DNA of 64,000 bases, taken from Bacteroidota bacterium (GTDB lineage Bacteria > Bacteroidota > Bacteroidia > UKL13-3). The position numbers and the translations under genes were made by a program. Location: NCBI GenBank assembly GCA_046309355.1, contig JBKCPL010000031.1, positions 70,520 to 134,519 of the forward strand. The letters run 5' to 3'. Positions within the stretch are counted from its first letter, which is position 1. Each line of letters starts with the position of its first letter. Below, piece by piece: positions 22,920-55,120 of this stretch. Under the pieces are notes generated by a model. That model worked only from the letters and a program-made list of their open reading frames with translations, was not told the DNA's origin and did not search any database.

Positions 22920-23606
22920 ATGAAAAAATCAATTCTATATATCCTGATGGCTGGGCTGCTCACTTTAGTAATGGCTGAAGCCTGCAAACACGATCCGGTA
23001 GAACCTATAACACAACCAACCACTACATCAGGAACTACCACCGGCAACCCCATACCATCAGATAGTGTATGTTTCAATACACAGATACTGCCCTTTTTTA
23101 TTTCAACCTGTGGAAGCAGCGGCTGCCACAGTGCTACCAATCCTCAAAAAGGATTTAACCTGACCACCTATACAGGTATTATGCAAGGTATTGTTCCAAA
23201 TAAACCCGCTGAAGGCAAAATAATGAAAGAGATTATTGACGGTGAAATGCCACCGGCCGGACCATTAACAGCAACTCAAAAAGCGCTGCTTGAAAAATGG
23301 ATTAGCGAGGGAGCTACACAGCGCAATTGCATCAATACATGCGATACGAATAATGTAACATATACCAATCAGGTAGCACCGGTTATTCAAACATATTGTG
23401 TAGGGTGCCACAACGGTTCATCAGGAAGCGGTGGAGTAAATTTAAACAGCTATACAGCCGTAAAAAATGAAACCCTAAATGGAAAACTTATATGTACTAT
23501 CCTACAAACGGGTGGTTGCTCTCCCATGCCGAAATCCGGACCAAAACTAAGTTTGTGTGATATTCGTAAATTTGAATTATGGAGGACTGCGAACTGCCCT
23601 CAATAA
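22920..23606 (+). CDS. Lipoprotein with two PSCyt1-like ('Planctomycete cytochrome c') heme-binding repeats.
   Basis: The signal peptide carries a MAEAC lipobox. Repeat 1 is CGSSGCH...NLTTY...MPPAGPLT...KWISEGA, a CX4CH variant. Repeat 2 is CVGCH...NLNSY...MPKSGPKLS, a CXXCH. Confidence 0.55.
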   Translation: MKKSILYILMAGLLTLVMAEACKHDPVEPITQPTTTSGTTTGNPIPSDSVCFNTQILPFFISTCGSSGCHSATNPQKGFNLTTYTGIMQGIVPNKPAEGKIMKEIIDGEMPPAGPLTATQKALLEKWISEGATQRNCINTCDTNNVTYTNQVAPVIQTYCVGCHNGSSGSGGVNLNSYTAVKNETLNGKLICTILQTGGCSPMPKSGPKLSLCDIRKFELWRTANCPQ

Positions 23607-23618
23607 ATGCACTAGTAC

Positions 23619-24071
23619 ATGAAAATATCCGCTGTTTCTTTTTTCCTATTCCTTTTCATCGCATCGTGCTCGCATTACGATGAAATTATGAGAAATGGTA
23701 AAGAAAGTACTTATAGCGGCAAAAGCCATAATGCAGGGGAGAATTGCATGACATGCCACAACAGCGGCAGTGACCTAAGTGAGGCGGTCAGAGAAGGAGG
23801 CTGGTGGTATGTAGCAGGTACTGTAAAAGGTGACTACGGAAAAGATATAGAATTATGGACTGGACCAAACCGAACGGGTGAGTTAGTATATTCGCTGCAA
23901 ATAGATCGTTCGGGTAATTTTTACAGTGCAAAAATTATCCCGGTTAACAAAGGAGTATACCCAACACTGATTAAAAAGGATGGAACTACCAAACACATGA
24001 GCACAATTACGGTAATAGGTGCGTGTACTAGTTGCCACGGGGAAACTACCGATGCTATTGATTCCAATTAA
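23619..24071 (+). CDS. Diheme c-type cytochrome lipoprotein.
   Basis: The signal peptide ends at ...FIASC. There are two CXXCH motifs, CMTCH and CTSCH. Confidence 0.55.
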   Translation: MKISAVSFFLFLFIASCSHYDEIMRNGKESTYSGKSHNAGENCMTCHNSGSDLSEAVREGGWWYVAGTVKGDYGKDIELWTGPNRTGELVYSLQIDRSGNFYSAKIIPVNKGVYPTLIKKDGTTKHMSTITVIGACTSCHGETTDAIDSN

Positions 24072-50769: not shown

Positions 50770-51240
50770 CTACTGGGGCTGTGGTCGGTAAAAATCCATA
50801 GTACCCGTTTTTACGTTATTCAGGTTCCACGTGTTAGTCATTACCTTACGTACGCCATCCACATTTTGTTCGGCAATCACAATTTCACCTTGCGGTTTAA
50901 CCTCGTATACCACCGCTGTATGCTTAAGCATTTTCCATCGCATTATCTCTTTCTCGGTTTTCTTTTCCATTGTTACATGGCTAAGCTGTATGATATCGCC
51001 TGGTAAAATCTGAGCCGCTTTACAGGAGTATTTCTTTCCAAAACCGTAAGGGGCATCCCATTTAGCACCTGCGTAATCAAGCGCTTCTGCAGCCAGATCC
51101 CAGCACTCCCCTCGACCTACCTGCTTACCCATTACTGAATTTACATATTCAATAACTTTGGTATTTACGGCAGGCAATTCATTCTTAACCGAGGTTTTAA
51201 AACTTAGAAAAATGGCAGCTAGCAGAATAAGTTGTTTCAT
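50770..51240 (-). CDS. Secreted papain-fold (NlpC/P60 or CHAP-like) putative amidase/peptidase.
   Basis: There is a signal peptide. The candidate Cys is in GECWDLAAEAL, PGDIIQLSHV is a GD-type strand and the candidate His is in HTAVVYEV. The motif assignment is by eye only. Confidence 0.4.
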   Translation of the reverse strand: MKQLILLAAIFLSFKTSVKNELPAVNTKVIEYVNSVMGKQVGRGECWDLAAEALDYAGAKWDAPYGFGKKYSCKAAQILPGDIIQLSHVTMEKKTEKEIMRWKMLKHTAVVYEVKPQGEIVIAEQNVDGVRKVMTNTWNLNNVKTGTMDFYRPQPQ

Positions 51241-51251
51241 GCTATTGAAAG

Positions 51252-52610
51252 TTATTTTGGTTGTTGAATTTCCTGACTAATATTCTCGTCACCCTGCTGA
51301 TAAGGCACATACGTAATGATTAATTGAAACATTTCATCTGTTGTTTTCATACTCCCTTCACGTTCCCGAATTTCTCGAGGCGGTTGAAACGGATTATTGG
51401 GATTTTCAGCTGTGTTGTCGTACACACCCTCCACGTAAATGGTAGTGCCACGCGGAAGTTTCAATAAGTTTTTAAACTGATAGAAATACTGCCAGCGAAA
51501 ATCCCAGCGAGGTATACGTATTAGTGGAATGGTATCGCCATTAGGTTTCACTGCATAAGCAAGGTATGATTTGCCTATAAGGTGCATATGTGGCACAATG
51601 CTGATAAGTGAAATATCTTCTGGTATGGTAGCCTGTATTCGAAATGTTTTTACCTCGCCAGCAGGAACAATAAGAGCCGGTACAACAGGTGCAATTCCCA
51701 ACGTACCAAGCTGAAATTCTTTCACAGGTCGCTTAGGAGGGTGAGAAGTAAAGTATATTTTAAAATAGGAACTGTCTTTGGCATCAACCGGTGTGGGGCC
51801 GTAGTGCAAATCATTTAGGTAAAAAGCATTCTTTTTACCGATTCTATAACCTCCAATTTCAGACGGATAAAAACTGAACAATGAGCCCGGTAAATAATTA
51901 CTTACGCTGGGCGACATGGTCGGATAGCTGCCATCATCGTGCAACAGGTTTAACTGACGGTGCACGCCTTGCAAATCGGTTTTATTTTGATTTATCCAGT
52001 ACTTTCCGTCAAATACATTCTTTTTCTTTCCGGTGTCAAACGTTATCAGGTGTGTATTGACGTGATGTACCAGTTTCTTATTTCCGGGTACAAATTCAAT
52101 AGCACGAATACATGTATCGGCTGGTAATTCAAACGGTATTTTCATAACCAGAAACAAGTCTTCATTGTTTCCGGGAATGGGCACATCGGGTACTTTCACA
52201 ATCATATCCGGTTCACCAAATACCTTCCTTTTTTTTACATCAGCTGCTGTGTATCGAATAGTTGAATCGCCCACGGGCATACCCGCATCAATCCATGTAT
52301 TGATAGTTTCAAGCTCAGTATCGGTTAATACCAACTCATTGGCAAAATGAGAATACGAAGCATCAGCAGGCCACGGAGGCATGATACGTTCATTGACTAG
52401 ATACCGAATAAGTTTGGCTCTGCCGGTTACATCTTCATAATTTAACAAACTGAAGGGGCCCGCCTCTCCTTCTAAGTGGCATTGGGCACACTTATTATGA
52501 ATAATAGGAGCAATATCGTCCGTAAATACCGGTGCGTGATGGACAGGCGCAATACTGCACGCTAGCATACACAAGCATACTATGGCTATAAAAATTATTC
52601 TATAAAACAT
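51252..52610 (-). CDS. Lipoprotein that fuses an N-terminal PSCyt1-like heme c domain to a copper type-II ascorbate-dependent monooxygenase (DBH/PHM)-like catalytic region.
   Basis: The lipobox is MLAC. The heme c domain reads CAQCH...MPPWP...LTDTELETINTWIDAG. The CuH-like site is LVHHVNTHL. The CuM-like site is PHMHLIG, with a downstream Met in EGSMKTTDEM. Confidence 0.5.
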   Translation of the reverse strand: MFYRIIFIAIVCLCMLACSIAPVHHAPVFTDDIAPIIHNKCAQCHLEGEAGPFSLLNYEDVTGRAKLIRYLVNERIMPPWPADASYSHFANELVLTDTELETINTWIDAGMPVGDSTIRYTAADVKKRKVFGEPDMIVKVPDVPIPGNNEDLFLVMKIPFELPADTCIRAIEFVPGNKKLVHHVNTHLITFDTGKKKNVFDGKYWINQNKTDLQGVHRQLNLLHDDGSYPTMSPSVSNYLPGSLFSFYPSEIGGYRIGKKNAFYLNDLHYGPTPVDAKDSSYFKIYFTSHPPKRPVKEFQLGTLGIAPVVPALIVPAGEVKTFRIQATIPEDISLISIVPHMHLIGKSYLAYAVKPNGDTIPLIRIPRWDFRWQYFYQFKNLLKLPRGTTIYVEGVYDNTAENPNNPFQPPREIREREGSMKTTDEMFQLIITYVPYQQGDENISQEIQQPK

Positions 52611-53137
52611 CCCACTGCTTTTGTTTTGGAAACGGGAACAGGCTTGCCTGCCACATATGCATCCAGCGCGTTTCGTAAATCATGTTCAGTAACTATTGTT
52701 CGCTTTCGGCCGGGTGCATATGCCCAGTTATCAATGCGGCCTGCATAAACCAATCCTTTATCGGGTACAAATAAAAATGCTTCAGGAGTGATTGTCGCTT
52801 TAAAATATCTGGTCAGCTTCTTGTTTTCATCTATAAATACTGAAAATTTAACCTTGTAGGTACGTGCGAAATCTGCTACTTGCTTGCTTGTGTATGCTTT
52901 ACCGGGTACAATTGCCACCAGGGCTATTTGCTTAGATGCATAGGTTTGATGAAACTCATTGAGGGTTTTGGTATAATTCTGACAGAGCGGACACTCAGGT
53001 GAAATAAAAACATACACTGCTGTCTGCTTTTTAAGGTCTAAGTAAAAGGTAGTACCATTAGTGTTTTTAACTGCAAAGCGCTGTGCATGCACAAAGGCAA
53101 AACACCCTATCAGTAAAAGACAAAGTACATAACGCAT
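52595..53137 (-). CDS. Thioredoxin-fold protein of the TlpA/redoxin family.
   Basis: There is a signal peptide. The CxxC site is ISPECPLCQ. The length is 180 aa. Its stop overlaps the downstream monooxygenase gene by 16 bp. Confidence 0.6.
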   Translation of the reverse strand: MRYVLCLLLIGCFAFVHAQRFAVKNTNGTTFYLDLKKQTAVYVFISPECPLCQNYTKTLNEFHQTYASKQIALVAIVPGKAYTSKQVADFARTYKVKFSVFIDENKKLTRYFKATITPEAFLFVPDKGLVYAGRIDNWAYAPGRKRTIVTEHDLRNALDAYVAGKPVPVSKTKAVGCFIE

Positions 53138-53155: not shown

Positions 53156-54913
53156 TCACCCTATCATTTCATAGGTTTCTTGGGGTACTTCTTTCATATC
53201 CATGACCAAAAACCCATCTAACGAATGGTTAAACTTAGGGTCAATATTGAAGGCTATAATTTTCGCGTTTTGCTTCAGGTATTTTTTCAGCAATACCGGC
53301 ACTTTATTGTGTGTCGTTTCAATATCGGAAATCATACTATCCAGCATTTTCATATCATCTGTAGTGTGATTAAGCAACTCTTTGCCTTCGCCTTTGTGCT
53401 GGTAGTGATACTTTTTCCGCGGTTTCACATGAGCAGAAAGTTTGTTGTCGAAATGATACTTTTTGATGTAATCTACCAGCAGATCTTTGCTCAACGATGA
53501 AAAGCTATTGCTTATGCTTACCGGCCCAATCAAATACCTGTATCGGTAATCGGTTTGTTTTAAAAACTCATTGATTCCTTTCCAGAGCAGCATTAGGCTT
53601 AATGGTTTACGCTGATATTCCTTTACTACAAACGACCGTCCCAATTCCATCGATTGCTTGAGTATGTCGTTAAATGGTTTAGCTATTTTAAATAACTCAT
53701 TCAGGTAAAATCCTTTCTTTTTGTATCGCCTGAACAACACATCCCCAAGTCCTATGCGGTAAGCACCTACAATTTTTTTAGCCGCTGAATCCCATATAAA
53801 CAAATGCTTGTAGTGCACATCAAATTCATCCGAATCAAAACTGTGGTTGGTGCCCTCTCCTACTTCACGAAACGTAATTTCACGCAATCGGGTAATCTCT
53901 TTTAAGATATTGGGGATAAAACGTGCACCTGAAATATATACTTCAAATTGCTCTTGCACGAATAATAGGTGTTTTCTGCCTTTCACTCGTACAATGTCTT
54001 CCTCCAGCAATGCTGTGCTTACAGCTTCAATAATGGGCTGAGGTTGCTCCAATACCGGACGAATTCGGAATTTAAAATGCTCGGTTACATCAAGCGATGA
54101 ACCCAGCGAGTAGGTTTTAGCTCTTAAAAATCGCAACAAACTTTCGGGATCGGTAAATTCTTGTACCGTTTTAATAGAAACCGGTTTACCAATTCGAACC
54201 TGAATAGGTTCTTTCTGCTTTTTGAATAGCTCAGAGGGCAGTTTTGCAGTACGCAATACCGGGTGAACAAGTCCAAGCAAATTAAATATTAGGCTGTTGT
54301 TGCCTGAAAAATAAAGAGGCACAACTTTTACCCCAGCTTTCATAATCATTTTTCCTACCACCGGATTCCACTCTTTATCTCGTATGGTAAAATTATTCAG
54401 CCTGAGCGATGAAACTTCGCCAGCTGGGAAAAGGCCTATAGGATGCCCTTCATCAACAAGTCTCATGGCTTTCTTTATTCCGGATACATTCATCGACTTT
54501 TTATCGGATTTATCGAACGGATTAACAAGAACAAAGTGATTGCTGATTGGAGTTATTTGCTGCAATAGATAATTGGCCATTATTTTAAAATCGGGACGCT
54601 TGCGGGCAATCAGCGATAACATAATTAATCCGTCAATGCCCCCGTAAGGGTGATTAGCTACCACAATGAAGGGCTCATTCGCAGGAATGTTCCGAAAGTC
54701 TTCGTCATCTAGTTCATATCGTATATTCAGCTTTTCCAAAATTTTATCTACAAAATCCATTCCTTCATACAGATGGGCTGTTTGGTAAACCTTATTTACC
54801 TCCTTCAACTTCAGCAACTTCATCAGTATAGGTGCCAGCTTATTAATTTTATACTGCTCCAGTTTCAGGTCCTGTGCCAGTTTATTTTCCGATATAAGTT
54901 CTTTGTCTGCCAT
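53156..54913 (-). CDS. Bifunctional acyltransferase, OlsF-like. The N-terminal domain is a PlsC-type O-acyltransferase and the C-terminal domain is an OlsB/GNAT-like N-acyltransferase.
   Basis: The HXXXXD motif is VANHPYGGIDG. The C-terminal region reads FIWDSAAKKIVGAYRIGLGD, which resembles aminolipid N-acyltransferases. The start is the ATG at 54913 because the track's start is GTG. Confidence 0.55.
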   Translation of the reverse strand: MADKELISENKLAQDLKLEQYKINKLAPILMKLLKLKEVNKVYQTAHLYEGMDFVDKILEKLNIRYELDDEDFRNIPANEPFIVVANHPYGGIDGLIMLSLIARKRPDFKIMANYLLQQITPISNHFVLVNPFDKSDKKSMNVSGIKKAMRLVDEGHPIGLFPAGEVSSLRLNNFTIRDKEWNPVVGKMIMKAGVKVVPLYFSGNNSLIFNLLGLVHPVLRTAKLPSELFKKQKEPIQVRIGKPVSIKTVQEFTDPESLLRFLRAKTYSLGSSLDVTEHFKFRIRPVLEQPQPIIEAVSTALLEEDIVRVKGRKHLLFVQEQFEVYISGARFIPNILKEITRLREITFREVGEGTNHSFDSDEFDVHYKHLFIWDSAAKKIVGAYRIGLGDVLFRRYKKKGFYLNELFKIAKPFNDILKQSMELGRSFVVKEYQRKPLSLMLLWKGINEFLKQTDYRYRYLIGPVSISNSFSSLSKDLLVDYIKKYHFDNKLSAHVKPRKKYHYQHKGEGKELLNHTTDDMKMLDSMISDIETTHNKVPVLLKKYLKQNAKIIAFNIDPKFNHSLDGFLVMDMKEVPQETYEMIG

Positions 54914-55120
54914 AAATAACCTCACGAAGGTGTTCGTAACACGTTAAGTGAACCTTAAGCATACATTAAGTTAGCATGAAATAATAGGTGAAGTAGGTAG
55001 TATATATTACTTGCTTAGTAGGTGTATCGGGTCATTTGCATGCAGCGTTAATTCAGCATGTTCGATTCGTGCAAGGCTTGTATTTCTCATTTCCTATGAA
55101 ATTCCACTACATTTGATGCC

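What the first reader, a model, noticed from the sequence alone, without database searches (positions are those of the whole stretch)
51252..53137. Heme c domain fused to a DBH/PHM-like copper monooxygenase and paired with a thioredoxin-fold protein.
The lipoprotein starts with a PSCyt1-like domain (CAQCH...MPPW...TWIDAG). It then shows the two copper-site signatures of type-II ascorbate-dependent monooxygenases: HH...H as in LVHHVNTHL, and HxH...M as in PHMHLIG with a downstream Met. A fused cytochrome could supply electrons in place of ascorbate. The gene upstream in the operon encodes a secreted TlpA-like CxxC protein and overlaps it by 16 bp. This would be a periplasmic copper hydroxylase with a built-in electron donor, an architecture I do not recognise. 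This is the fourth PSCyt1-like domain in the window.
Basis: partly seen in the sequence, partly recalled or inferred. Interest (0 to 1): 0.55.

Follow-up and report, generated by a model that had tools for sequence, protein, structure and literature searches.

The report
Heme-fused bacterial PHM-like copper monooxygenase
A Bacteroidota lipoprotein joins a c-type heme domain to a two-copper oxygenase core of the kind that makes noradrenaline and amidated peptide hormones in animals, is almost always encoded with a dedicated thioredoxin-fold partner, and belongs to a very large, uncharacterised bacterial branch of an enzyme class usually listed as eukaryote-only.

Summary
Two overlapping minus-strand genes encode a secreted thioredoxin-fold protein (52595-53137) and a 452-aa lipoprotein (51252-52610). 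The lipoprotein has a heme c domain (C41-x-x-C44-H45, M77) followed by a two-domain core. An AlphaFold model of that core matches human DBH and rat PHM (Foldseek E 5e-13 to 1e-8). A profile alignment to PHM (hhalign 96%, E 1.7e-9) puts all six copper ligands on residues conserved in at least 109 of 111 diverse relatives: H182/H183/H269 (CuH) and H341/H343/M427 (CuM). Pfam gives no PSCyt1 hit. The partner is closer to uncharacterised PRX-like1 proteins than to TlpA. The partner gene is adjacent in 71 of 78 informative genomes, often with the same 16-nt overlap. In distant relatives it lies downstream or is fused to the enzyme. PHM's peptide-anchoring residues are absent, so the substrate differs and is unknown. 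The most likely function is a periplasmic O2-dependent hydroxylase whose fused heme replaces ascorbate. The partner's role (reductant, heme or copper maturation, or repair) is unresolved. I found no published description. I rate it a new variant of a known kind.

The parts
52595..53137 (-). Gene for the secreted thioredoxin-fold partner (180 aa). It belongs to the AhpC-TSA/Redoxin clan, PRX-like1-type subfamily.
   Evidence: ORF. Pfam AhpC-TSA 49.2 bits and Redoxin 38 bits. Closest solved relatives are 2ywi, 2cvb and 3u5r at E 3e-20 to 3e-17. Adjacent to the enzyme gene in 71 of 80 loci.
53081..53137 (-). Partner signal peptide (MRYVLCLLLIGCFAFVHA|Q), probably cleaved by signal peptidase I.
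   Evidence: Read from the sequence. The N-terminus is not conserved among 70 partners. The cleavage site is inferred.
52982..52993 (-). Partner active site C49-P-L-C52. C49 is conserved across the superfamily. C52 is conserved only in the close clade.
   Evidence: CPLC in 63 of 70 partners. Fusion proteins and distant partners keep only [ED]-C-P.
52781..52789 (-). Partner T117-P118-E119, the presumed cis-Pro loop of thiol-disulfide oxidoreductases.
   Evidence: P118 is invariant. The cis conformation is inferred from family knowledge.
52724..52747 (-). Partner Y131-x-G-R-I-D-N-W138 motif, shared with the PRX-like1 structures.
   Evidence: Invariant Y131, G133, I135 and D136. Aligned to YRGQLDD in 2ywi and YHGRVND in 2cvb.
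52598..52612 (-). Partner C-terminal G176-C177-F-I-E motif carrying the third invariant cysteine. It is dual-coded with the enzyme's start.
   Evidence: G176 and C177 are invariant. The motif is kept in fusion proteins 20-30 aa before the heme CxxCH. Junction sequence.
52595..52610 (-). 16-nt gene overlap. The enzyme's ATG lies inside the partner's Gly176-Cys177 codons, which implies translational coupling.
   Evidence: The identical -16 overlap occurs in about 40 of 71 loci.
51252..52610 (-). Gene for the 452-aa lipoprotein: heme c domain followed by a PHM/DBH-like two-copper core.
52557..52610 (-). Lipoprotein signal peptide with lipobox ending at C18.
   Evidence: C18 is invariant and is preceded by A, S or G in all 45 homologues, within an otherwise variable N-terminus. 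Lipidation is inferred.
52251..52538 (-). Class-I-like c-type cytochrome domain (about residues 25-120).
   Evidence: Helices 29-40, 58-62, 65-74 and 97-108 in the model. Sub-threshold Cytochrome_CBB3 at 16.7 bits. Cytochrome_CBB3 in 35 and Haem_bd in 20 of 102 relatives.
52476..52490 (-). Heme attachment motif C41-A-Q-C44-H45.
   Evidence: Kept in 111 of 111 representatives.
52371..52382 (-). M77-P-P-W. M77 is the presumed distal heme ligand.
   Evidence: M77 is kept in 111 of 111 representatives. Its role as ligand is inferred.
51741..52223 (-). N-terminal beta-sandwich (CuH domain, about residues 130-290). It has a clade-variable insertion at about 192-230 relative to PHM.
   Evidence: Foldseek. 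hhalign to PHM residues 89-190. Cu2_monooxygen hits in 24 of 102 relatives.
52062..52067 (-). H182-H183, aligned to PHM H107-H108 (CuH ligands).
   Evidence: Kept in 110 and 109 of 111 representatives.
51798..51806 (-). H269-Y-G, aligned to PHM H172-Y-G (third CuH ligand).
   Evidence: Kept in 109 of 111 representatives.
51291..51740 (-). C-terminal beta-sandwich (CuM domain, about residues 291-440).
   Evidence: Pfam Cu2_monoox_C on residues 326-403..
51582..51590 (-). H341-M-H343, aligned to PHM H242-T-H244 (CuM ligands).
   Evidence: Kept in 110 of 111 representatives each.
51489..51491 (-). Q374, aligned to PHM Q272 (second-sphere residue).
   Evidence: Kept in 111 of 111 representatives.
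51330..51338 (-). D425-E426-M427, aligned to PHM D312-E313-M314. M427 is the CuM methionine ligand.
   Evidence: E426 is kept in 111 of 111 and M427 in 109 of 111 representatives.

Best explanation
The 452-aa gene encodes a periplasmic, lipid-anchored enzyme with two separated (non-coupled) copper sites, of the PHM/DBH type. CuM (H341, H343, M427) binds and activates O2 and hydroxylates a C-H bond, or oxygenates a heteroatom, of an unidentified substrate. That substrate is not a glycine-extended peptide. CuH (H182, H183, H269) stores and passes on the second electron. Animals use ascorbate, recycled by cytochrome b561. Here a covalently fused c-type heme domain (C41/C44/H45, M77) is the entry point that delivers the two electrons one at a time to CuH. 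The heme is itself reduced by a periplasmic donor. The translationally coupled thioredoxin-fold partner (conserved thiols C49 and C177, plus C52 in this clade) works directly with the enzyme. My preferred role for it is a thiol-based reductant or redox accessory, kept reduced by the CcdA/DsbD route. Maturation (keeping the apo-CxxCH reduced, or handing over Cu(I)) is nearly as likely.

Shown here: the fold, the conservation of both metal-site ligand sets, the architecture, the gene pairing, and the fusions.

Inferred: metal occupancy, O2 chemistry, direction of electron flow, the partner's role, and the cellular location.
For: - Fold: the model (pLDDT 84.9) matches DBH and PHM across both domains at E down to 5.5e-13.
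- Ligands: hhalign of a 123-sequence profile to rat PHM gives Prob 96.3% and E 1.7e-9. All six ligands, plus Q272 and E313, are matched. The PHM sequence used was verified as 100% identical to PDB chains.
- Selection: across 111 cluster representatives at 50% identity, essentially the only invariant side chains are the 4 heme residues, the 6 copper ligands and a few structural residues.
- Pfam through relatives: Cu2_monoox_C in 78 of 102 and Cu2_monooxygen in 24 of 102 (best E 1.4e-11 and 5.6e-12).
- Heme is universal: every full-length member has CxxCH about 285-300 residues before HxH.
- Partner linkage: adjacent in 71 of 78 informative loci while all other neighbours vary. The identical 16-nt overlap occurs in about 40 loci. 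The partner lies downstream in a distant locus, and one partner serves three tandem paralogues in L086. N- or C-terminal fusions occur in 7 of 150 representatives, and one of them is seen on at least 24 contigs.
- Location: invariant lipobox Cys. Heme c attachment is periplasmic by established knowledge.
Against: - No experiment and no model coordinates were available, so ligand geometry and the heme-to-CuH distance are untested.
- The window protein's own Pfam hit is sub-threshold, and its profile finds no PHM or DBH chain by sequence alone.
- The substrate is unknown. PHM's anchors R240, N316 and Y318 correspond to V339, Q429 and I431, and no conserved neighbour hints at a pathway.
- Two candidate electron sources (heme and dithiol) in one system is unexplained. 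Thiol-to-heme transfer without a flavin or metal is unusual.
- One T9SS-exported member keeps the partner, and the enzyme's only conserved cysteines are the heme CxxCH. Both facts fit a maturation role better than a catalytic one.
- Seven loci lack an adjacent partner.
Confidence: 0.62

Rival explanations
1. Same enzyme, but the partner is purely a maturation factor. Either it is a dedicated ResA/CcsX-like reductase that keeps the apo-cytochrome CxxCH reduced for System II heme attachment, or it is a Sco-like thioredoxin-fold Cu(I) insertase that uses C49, C52 and C177. Under this reading, catalytic electrons reach the heme from the respiratory chain or another cytochrome.
For: The only conserved cysteines in the enzyme are C41 and C44 of the heme motif, so they are the only possible thiol-disulfide target in it. 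The closest characterised relatives of the partner are ResA and StoA (NCBIfam ResA 35.9 bits; PDB ResA about 1e-11). A T9SS-exported member still has a periplasmic partner-type gene directly upstream. One partner serves three tandem enzyme paralogues in L086. Three invariant thiols in this clade could bind Cu(I).
Against: Exact translational coupling and repeated fusion into one polypeptide suggest 1:1 stoichiometry, which is unusual for a maturation factor. The CxxC needed for ResA-type chemistry is lost in most fusion proteins, where only C49 and C177 remain. There is no Sco-type CxxxC plus His and no PF02630 hit. Three of four T9SS-type loci and seven close loci lack the partner, and other cytochromes manage with the general machinery.
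Confidence: 0.25
2. Electron flow is the reverse. The copper/heme protein is an oxidase that re-oxidises the thioredoxin-fold partner, passing electrons to O2 at CuM or to the respiratory chain through the heme. That would make it a periplasmic disulfide-generating or thiol-oxidising system, or a protective or repair module linked to methionine oxidation.
For: No substrate or pathway genes are conserved with the pair. The partner is the only constant companion. Lipoprotein MsrA genes lie divergently next to the pair in 26 of 80 loci, and a PF06491 disulphide-isomerase family gene lies nearby in 22 of 80. By my own knowledge, PHM-type sites can reduce O2 to H2O2 when uncoupled.
Against: Full conservation of the His2Met CuM site, Q272 and E313 equivalents points to controlled O2 activation for substrate oxygenation. 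No PHM-family oxidase of this kind is known. The MsrA and PF06491 neighbours are lineage-restricted and could be plain synteny. T9SS-secreted members mostly lack the partner.
Confidence: 0.08
3. It is a true orthologue of peptidylglycine alpha-hydroxylating monooxygenase and carries out the first step of C-terminal peptide amidation in bacteria.
For: Same fold and same six ligands as PHM.
Against: The residues that hold the glycine carboxylate in PHM (R240, N316, Y318, from my own knowledge of the 1OPM complex) align with V339, Q429 and I431, and these positions are variable across the superfamily. No lyase (PAL) partner is conserved nearby. Identity to PHM is about 15-21%.
Confidence: 0.03
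4. The beta-sandwich region is a non-catalytic binding module (a PNGase F/PHM-superfamily jelly roll), and the histidines are coincidental or structural.
For: The window protein's own Pfam score is below threshold, and jelly-roll folds recur widely (lower hits).
Against: The six ligand positions, plus Q272 and E313 equivalents, are nearly the only invariant side chains over a superfamily with 15,349 clusters at E no greater than 1e-3. Profile alignment gives E 1.7e-9. DBH and PHM outrank all other folds by 7 orders of magnitude.
Confidence: 0.02

Closest known systems
Peptidylglycine alpha-hydroxylating monooxygenase (PHM, catalytic core of PAM; e.g. PDB 1PHM, 1OPM, 1SDW)
   Same: Two beta-sandwich domains (Foldseek E about 1e-12, TM about 0.6 on the PHM length). 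All six copper ligands match: H107/H108/H172 and H242/H244/M314 align to H182/H183/H269 and H341/H343/M427. Local motifs also match (VHH, HYG, HxHxxGK, DEM), as do second-sphere Q272 and E313.
   Different: About 15-21% identity. The substrate anchors R240 and Y318 are absent. None of PHM's disulfides are present, since the mature core has no conserved Cys. There is an insertion at about 192-230. The protein is bacterial, lipid-anchored and periplasmic. It has an N-terminal heme c domain, no PAL partner, and no ascorbate/cytochrome b561 context.
Dopamine beta-hydroxylase / tyramine beta-monooxygenase / MOXD1 (PDB 4ZEL)
   Same: Best structural hit (E 5.5e-13, 361 columns). Same catalytic core. 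Like this protein, these enzymes carry an extra N-terminal domain in front of the core (DOMON, from my own knowledge).
   Different: The N-terminal domain here is a c-type cytochrome with covalent heme, not a DOMON domain (no DOMON hit). There is no C-terminal dimerisation domain. The substrate is unknown.
Copper monooxygenases served by a cytochrome electron donor, for example cellobiose dehydrogenase cytochrome domain to LPMO (own knowledge; context in PMC11725913 and PMC5987398, listed but not read)
   Same: The same logic: a heme domain delivers single electrons to an O2-activating copper site in an extracytoplasmic compartment.
   Different: LPMOs have a mononuclear histidine-brace copper and an unrelated fold. 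There the cytochrome is on a separate protein and carries heme b. Here the heme is c-type and is fused to a two-copper PHM-type core.
PRX-like1 / TlpA-like thioredoxin-fold proteins of unknown function (PDB 2YWI, 2CVB, 3U5R) and ResA/StoA
   Same: The partner profile hits 2ywi, 2cvb and 3u5r at E 3e-20 to 3e-17 over the full length. This includes the Y-x-G-R-[ILV]-[DN]-D motif and the C-terminal G-C-x-I cysteine. It has a Trx fold with C-P at the active site and a conserved Pro in the cis-Pro loop. ResA and StoA are more distant (1e-9 to 1e-11).
   Different: The solved proteins have C-x-x-C-P, with their second Cys aligned to C49. The window partner has C49-P-L-C52. None of the solved proteins has a known function or a known link to a copper enzyme. 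NCBIfam ResA scores 35.9 bits against a cutoff of 170.

Membership tests
Copper type II ascorbate-dependent monooxygenases (PHM/DBH/TBM superfamily; Pfam PF01082 + PF03712) | Two-domain beta-sandwich catalytic core | tested here: met
   The AF2 model (pLDDT 84.9) matches 4zel and about 25 PHM entries over 310-360 columns at E 5.5e-13 to 1.3e-8, probability 1.00.
Copper type II ascorbate-dependent monooxygenases (PHM/DBH/TBM superfamily; Pfam PF01082 + PF03712) | CuH site: His-His pair plus a third His in the N-terminal domain | tested here: met
   H182, H183 and H269 align to PHM H107, H108 and H172. They are kept in at least 109 of 111 representatives. Geometry was not checked because no coordinates were available.
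Copper type II ascorbate-dependent monooxygenases (PHM/DBH/TBM superfamily; Pfam PF01082 + PF03712) | CuM site: H-x-H plus a downstream Met in the C-terminal domain | tested here: met
   H341, H343 and M427 align to PHM H242, H244 and M314 in two independent hhalign runs. They are kept in at least 109 of 111 representatives.
Copper type II ascorbate-dependent monooxygenases (PHM/DBH/TBM superfamily; Pfam PF01082 + PF03712) | Pfam profile matches above gathering score for both domains | tested here: inconclusive
   The window protein scores 21.6 bits on PF03712 against a gathering score of 23, and has no PF01082 hit. Relatives pass: PF03712 at 33.8 bits in P0122 and PF01082 at 34.1 bits in P0228. 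At E no greater than 0.01, 78 and 24 of 102 relatives hit the two models.
Copper type II ascorbate-dependent monooxygenases (PHM/DBH/TBM superfamily; Pfam PF01082 + PF03712) | Binds two Cu, consumes O2 and hydroxylates a substrate; ascorbate as reductant | not testable with these tools
   This needs purified protein. Ascorbate dependence is not expected here (bacterial periplasm, fused heme).
PHM proper (peptidylglycine-specific) | Carboxylate and backbone anchors R240, N316 and Y318 for glycine-extended peptides (own knowledge of the 1OPM complex) | tested here: not met
   These align to V339, Q429 and I431, and the positions are variable across the superfamily.
DBH/TBM/MOXD subfamily | N-terminal DOMON domain | tested here: not met
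   No DOMON hit in the window protein or in 102 relatives. The N-terminal domain is a cytochrome c.
c-type cytochrome (class I-like) | CxxCH heme attachment motif, a distal Met, and a small helical domain exported to the periplasm | tested here: met
   C41, C44, H45 and M77 are kept in 111 of 111 representatives. The model shows four helices. There is a signal peptide with a lipobox. Pfam Cytochrome_CBB3 is only 16.7 bits against a cutoff of 27. Heme occupancy was not tested.
PSCyt1 (PF07635, planctomycete cytochrome c) | Match to the PF07635 profile | tested here: not met
   No hit at E no greater than 1 for the window protein and 0 of 102 relatives at E no greater than 0.01. There is only a weak pairwise resemblance to the window's true PSCyt1 protein (E 3e-5).
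TlpA/ResA-type periplasmic thiol-disulfide oxidoreductases | Secreted Trx fold with a CxxC active site and a cis-Pro loop | tested here: met
   AhpC-TSA 49.2 bits and Redoxin 38 bits, both above cutoffs. CPLC in 63 of 70 partners and invariant P118. Signal peptide present.
TlpA/ResA-type periplasmic thiol-disulfide oxidoreductases | Orthology to ResA or TlpA (NCBIfam cutoffs; CxxC retained throughout the family) | tested here: not met
   ResA model scores 35.9 bits against a cutoff of 170. The closest solved proteins are the PRX-like1-type 2ywi, 2cvb and 3u5r rather than ResA. The second Cys of the CxxC is lost in fusion proteins and distant partners.
Sco/SenC copper chaperones | Trx fold with CxxxC plus a conserved His copper ligand; PF02630 | tested here: not met
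   No PF02630 hit. The motif is CxxC, and there is no invariant His in 70 partners.
Peroxiredoxins | PxxxT/SxxC peroxidatic motif plus a conserved Arg | tested here: not met
   Ser or Thr three residues before C49, and R134, are not conserved in fusion proteins or distant partners. Peroxidase activity was not tested.

The most novel reading that the evidence does not exclude
A thiol-driven periplasmic hydroxylase. Reducing power from cytoplasmic NADPH/thioredoxin would cross the membrane via CcdA/DsbD to the dedicated PRX-like1-type partner (C49/C177). The partner would then feed the fused heme c, or the coppers directly, of a PHM-type enzyme. This would be an electron-supply chain for an O2-activating copper monooxygenase that has no known precedent. 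It would mark a bacterial enzyme class, thousands of clusters strong, acting on an unknown envelope or environmental substrate.
Probability: 0.2. Interest if true: 0.85.

Novelty: new variant of a known kind. Interest (0 to 1): 0.68.

Why it matters
PHM and DBH are the textbook enzymes with two separated (non-coupled) copper sites. A 2020 metalloproteome review lists them as eukaryote-only cuproproteins (PMC7435645, Table 3).

This locus represents a very large bacterial superfamily. It has 15,349 clusters at 50% identity with E no greater than 1e-3, and 2,192 with E no greater than 1e-30. The family keeps the complete two-copper ligand set and adds a covalently bound heme.

If it is active, three things follow:
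1. The prokaryotic cuproproteome gains a new enzyme class.
2. Researchers gain a soluble, disulfide-free, ascorbate-independent bacterial model with a built-in spectroscopic electron donor. That would help with long-standing questions about how electrons cross the roughly 11 Å gap between CuH and CuM.
3. It points to an unknown oxidative modification in the Bacteroidota envelope, or outside the cell for the T9SS-secreted subfamily.

The conserved partner also gives the first functional context for the orphan PRX-like1 thioredoxin-fold proteins solved by structural genomics (2YWI, 2CVB, 3U5R).

Tried and rejected
- Sequence searches of the PDB with the single protein and with the 45-sequence profile found no PHM or DBH chain. 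Homology appeared only through fold search and a more diverse profile. The first hhalign, with the narrow profile, aligned only the C-terminal domain at E 0.039.
- Model coordinates are not exposed, so His/Met geometry and heme-to-copper distance could not be measured.
- Ten literature searches found no description of bacterial cytochrome c-PHM-like proteins. PMC2938197 cites PHM only as a fold example.
- I rejected the window neighbours as functional partners. OlsF-like, the CHAP/AIM3-fold protein, DPP-IV-like peptidase and the DUF58-like protein each recur in at most 2 of 80 loci.
- I rejected H187, H217 and M421 as extra metal ligands, because they are conserved only in the close clade.
- I tested whether T9SS-exported members lack the partner, as a way to separate a maturation role from a redox role. 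The result was mixed (3 without, 1 with), so it is not decisive.
- The sigma-70 promoter and terminator scan was at chance level and is of little value for Bacteroidota.
- The window protein's exact sequence is not in the contig index.


Full report
**1. Observation**

Both ORFs are on the minus strand exactly where reported: 52595-53137 (180 aa) and 51252-52610 (452 aa). They overlap by 16 nt. The junction reads GGA TGT TTT ATA GAA TAA (G C F I E stop). In the other frame it reads ATG TTT TAT AGA (M F Y R). The enzyme's start codon therefore lies inside the partner's Gly176-Cys177 codons.

The four minus-strand genes here are tightly packed: an OlsF-like gene, then 18 nt, the partner, a -16 nt overlap, the enzyme, then 11 nt and a CHAP/AIM3-fold protein. 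A sigma-70 promoter and terminator scan is at chance level.

Near-identical proteins occur in Bacteroidota metagenome-assembled genomes. NCBI annotates one of them from an internal Met (438 aa), which would remove the signal peptide. The longer form, with an invariant lipobox Cys18, is the better call.

**2. What the large protein is**

Pfam on the window protein alone gives only two sub-threshold hits. Cu2_monoox_C scores 21.6 bits against a gathering score of 23 (residues 326-403). Cytochrome_CBB3 scores 16.7 bits. There is no hit to the N-terminal Cu2_monooxygen model or to PSCyt1. Sequence searches of the PDB find nothing.

Three further lines settle the question.

(a) Fold. An AlphaFold2 model built on 45 homologues (pLDDT 84.9, pTM 0.78) has a four-helix N-terminal domain and two beta-sandwiches. 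Foldseek against the PDB returns human dopamine beta-hydroxylase (4zel, E 5.5e-13) and about 25 rat PHM entries (E 1.6e-12 to 1.3e-8). The alignments span 310-360 columns, which covers both catalytic domains. The next hits are unrelated viral jelly rolls at E above 2e-5 with TM below 0.2.

(b) Ligands. I reproduced the rat PHM core sequence from memory and verified it as 100% identical to PDB chains, with position 1 equal to residue 88. A 123-sequence superfamily profile (Neff 5.6) aligns to it with probability 96.3% and E 1.7e-9 over residues 165-436. The matches are:

| This protein | PHM | Site |
|---|---|---|
| VHH 182/183 | VHH 107/108 | CuH |
| LHYG 269 | VHYG 172 | CuH |
| PHMHLIGK 341/343 | VHTHHLGK 242/244 | CuM |
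| TTDEM 427 | SSDEM 314 | CuM |

The invariant Q374 and E426 correspond to PHM Q272 and E313. Q272 is the residue mutated in PDB entries 8dsl and 8dsn.

(c) Pfam through relatives. Among 102 relatives from different 50%-identity clusters, 78 hit Cu2_monoox_C (best 1.4e-11) and 24 hit the N-terminal Cu2_monooxygen model (best 5.6e-12). Some exceed the gathering scores.

**3. Selection on the metal sites**

Across 111 representatives of 50%-identity clusters, the side chains kept in at least 93% are:
- the four heme residues (C41, C44, H45, M77, all 111 of 111);
- the six copper ligands (109-110 of 111);
- Q374 and E426;
- a handful of Trp, Pro, Asn and Gly positions.

So are H217 and M421. The correct third ligand is H269.

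The mature protein has no conserved cysteine outside the heme motif, so PHM's disulfides are absent. PHM's peptidylglycine anchors (R240, N316, Y318, from my own knowledge of the substrate complex) align with V339, Q429 and I431, and these positions vary across the family. The enzyme is therefore a member of the PHM/DBH superfamily but not a PHM orthologue. Its substrate is unknown.

**4. The heme domain**

CxxCH, followed by M-P-P-W 32 residues later, is universal in full-length members. It always lies about 285-300 residues before HxH.

Pfam places it nearest Cytochrome_CBB3 or Haem_bd, and never PSCyt1. It does resemble the window's genuine PSCyt1 protein at 22920-23606 weakly (pairwise E 3e-5). 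'PSCyt1-like' is acceptable as a description of a resemblance but not as a family assignment.

**5. The partner**

It has a signal peptide and hits AhpC-TSA (49 bits) and Redoxin (38 bits). In 70 orthologues the conserved features are C49-P-L-C52, Y55, D103, T-P118-E, Y131-x-G-R-I-D-N-W and a C-terminal G176-C177-[FY]-I-[EN].

Its closest solved relatives are three structural-genomics proteins of unknown function: 2ywi, 2cvb and 3u5r (E 3e-20 to 3e-17). They share the YxGRxDD and GCxI motifs. ResA and StoA are more distant (about 1e-9 to 1e-11).

In fusion proteins and distant partners, the second Cys of the CxxC is replaced, while C49 and C177 persist. The thiol pair conserved across the superfamily is therefore C49 + C177. 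Sco-type and peroxiredoxin-type signatures are not conserved.

**6. Linkage of the two genes**

In 80 loci from different species, the partner lies directly upstream on the same strand in 71. Two further loci lack upstream sequence. Seven have no partner nearby even by HMM search. About 40 loci have the identical 16-nt overlap. No other gene is conserved with the pair; the next most frequent neighbour occurs in 26 loci.

In more distant members the arrangement varies:
- the partner lies downstream (P0153 locus);
- one partner precedes three tandem enzyme paralogues (L086);
- the partner is fused to the enzyme's N-terminus (P0122, P0248, P0255, P0258, P0261, and twice in the duplicated P0147) or C-terminus (P0198).

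These fused domains score 76-230 bits against the partner HMM. The P0122 fusion occurs on at least 24 contigs, including TARA ocean samples.

Conserved adjacency, variable gene order and recurrent fusion together are strong evidence for direct functional interaction.

**7. Subfamilies**

Of 102 relatives, 36 carry a T9SS C-terminal sorting domain, so many members are exported to the cell surface or the medium. Others carry PKD, Ig, EF-hand or Kunitz modules. Of four informative T9SS-type loci, three lack an adjacent partner and one has a partner-type gene directly upstream.

**8. Mechanism**

Best explanation: a periplasmic, lipid-anchored monooxygenase with two separated copper sites. O2 is activated at CuM (His2Met). 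The second electron comes from CuH (His3). Both coppers are re-reduced through the fused heme c, which takes the place of ascorbate. This follows from the established PHM/DBH mechanism and the architecture, but it is an inference.

The partner's role is open.
- Its coupling and fusions argue for a stoichiometric redox partner. This could be a dithiol reductant fed by CcdA/DsbD. Cu(II) is readily reduced by thiols, whereas thiol-to-heme transfer is less usual.
- The enzyme's only conserved cysteines are the heme CxxCH. The nearest characterised homologues are cytochrome-maturation reductases. One exported member retains the partner. These facts argue for a maturation role.
- A reversed-flow oxidase or repair role cannot be excluded. 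It is hinted at by lipoprotein MsrA genes lying divergently beside the pair in 26 loci and PF06491 genes in 22.

**9. Novelty**

Pfam already flags the C-terminal domain in many members, so membership of the superfamily is visible in databases. However, sources name the proteins only 'hypothetical' or 'cytochrome c'. Ten full-text searches found no description. A 2020 review lists PHM and DBM as eukaryote-only cuproproteins.

The family is very large: 15,349 clusters at E no greater than 1e-3.

I classify it as a new variant of a known kind. The catalytic core is known. The fused c-type heme, the dedicated thioredoxin-fold partner and the bacterial periplasmic or T9SS setting are new.

Confidence:
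- about 0.8 that this is a PHM/DBH-type two-copper protein with a heme c domain;
- about 0.62 for the full mechanism stated above.

Noticed in passing
window 52595-52612 (-); also about 40 of loci L001-L080: Dual coding at the gene junction. The enzyme's ATG lies inside the partner's invariant Gly-Cys codons (GGATGT). The partner's conserved GCFIE tail and the enzyme's unusually conserved signal-peptide start MFYR therefore constrain each other. The exact 16-nt overlap recurs across genomes whose proteins are only 50-68% identical.
   Followed up: partly
loci L001, L004-L011, L013, L014, L019, L022, L034 and others (26 of 80), immediately upstream of the partner on the opposite strand: A peptide methionine sulfoxide reductase (PMSR/MsrA) with a lipoprotein signal peptide is transcribed divergently from the partner-enzyme pair. 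This suggests a periplasmic Met-oxidation repair link, or a shared reductant. It could equally be lineage synteny.
   Followed up: partly
22 of 80 loci, e.g. L048:1953-2438 (-), just downstream of the enzyme: A PF06491 'disulphide isomerase' family gene (193 bits) lies next to the pair in a subset of genomes. It is a second thiol-redox neighbour.
   Followed up: no
relatives P0148-P0270 (36 of 102 scanned), e.g. L084, L087, L088, L089: A subfamily of about 520 aa carries a T9SS C-terminal sorting domain (Por_Secre_tail). That makes it a heme c plus two-copper protein apparently exported out of the cell. The electron source for a secreted form is unexplained.
   Followed up: partly
L086:2283-7576: One partner-type Trx gene is followed by three tandem paralogues of the enzyme (439, 421 and 437 aa, each with CxxCH, HH and HxH). 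A TPR gene is inserted between the first and second paralogue.
   Followed up: partly
P0147 (1251 aa), P0127 (1064 aa): P0147 repeats the whole Trx-cytochrome c-PHM-like module twice in one polypeptide. P0127 has two cytochrome c-PHM-like units plus EF-hand calcium-binding motifs.
   Followed up: no
window 22920-23606 (+) and 23619-24071 (+): Two adjacent small heme proteins. The first is a 228-aa lipoprotein-like protein with a PSCyt1 domain (44 bits) whose heme motif is CX4CH (CGSSGCH), plus a second CxxCH domain. The second is a 150-aa protein with two CxxCH motifs and weak multiheme-like hits.
   Followed up: partly
window 53156-54925 (-): A bifunctional OlsF-like ornithine/glycine-lipid synthase (NCBIfam OlsF 415 bits, below its cutoff of 620; Acyltransferase plus GNAT domains) ends 18 nt upstream of the partner gene. 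It is not conserved next to the pair in other genomes.
   Followed up: partly
window 50770-51240 (-): A secreted 156-aa protein with an AIM3/BBC1 cysteine-proteinase-fold / CHAP-like domain (71 bits) starts 11 nt after the enzyme's stop. A homologue follows the enzyme in only one other locus (L014).
   Followed up: partly
P0003 (NCBI annotation of a protein 100% identical to the window enzyme over 97% of its length): The public annotation starts at an internal Met (438 aa), which removes most of the signal peptide and the gene overlap. The 452-aa form with the lipobox is supported by conservation.
   Followed up: partly
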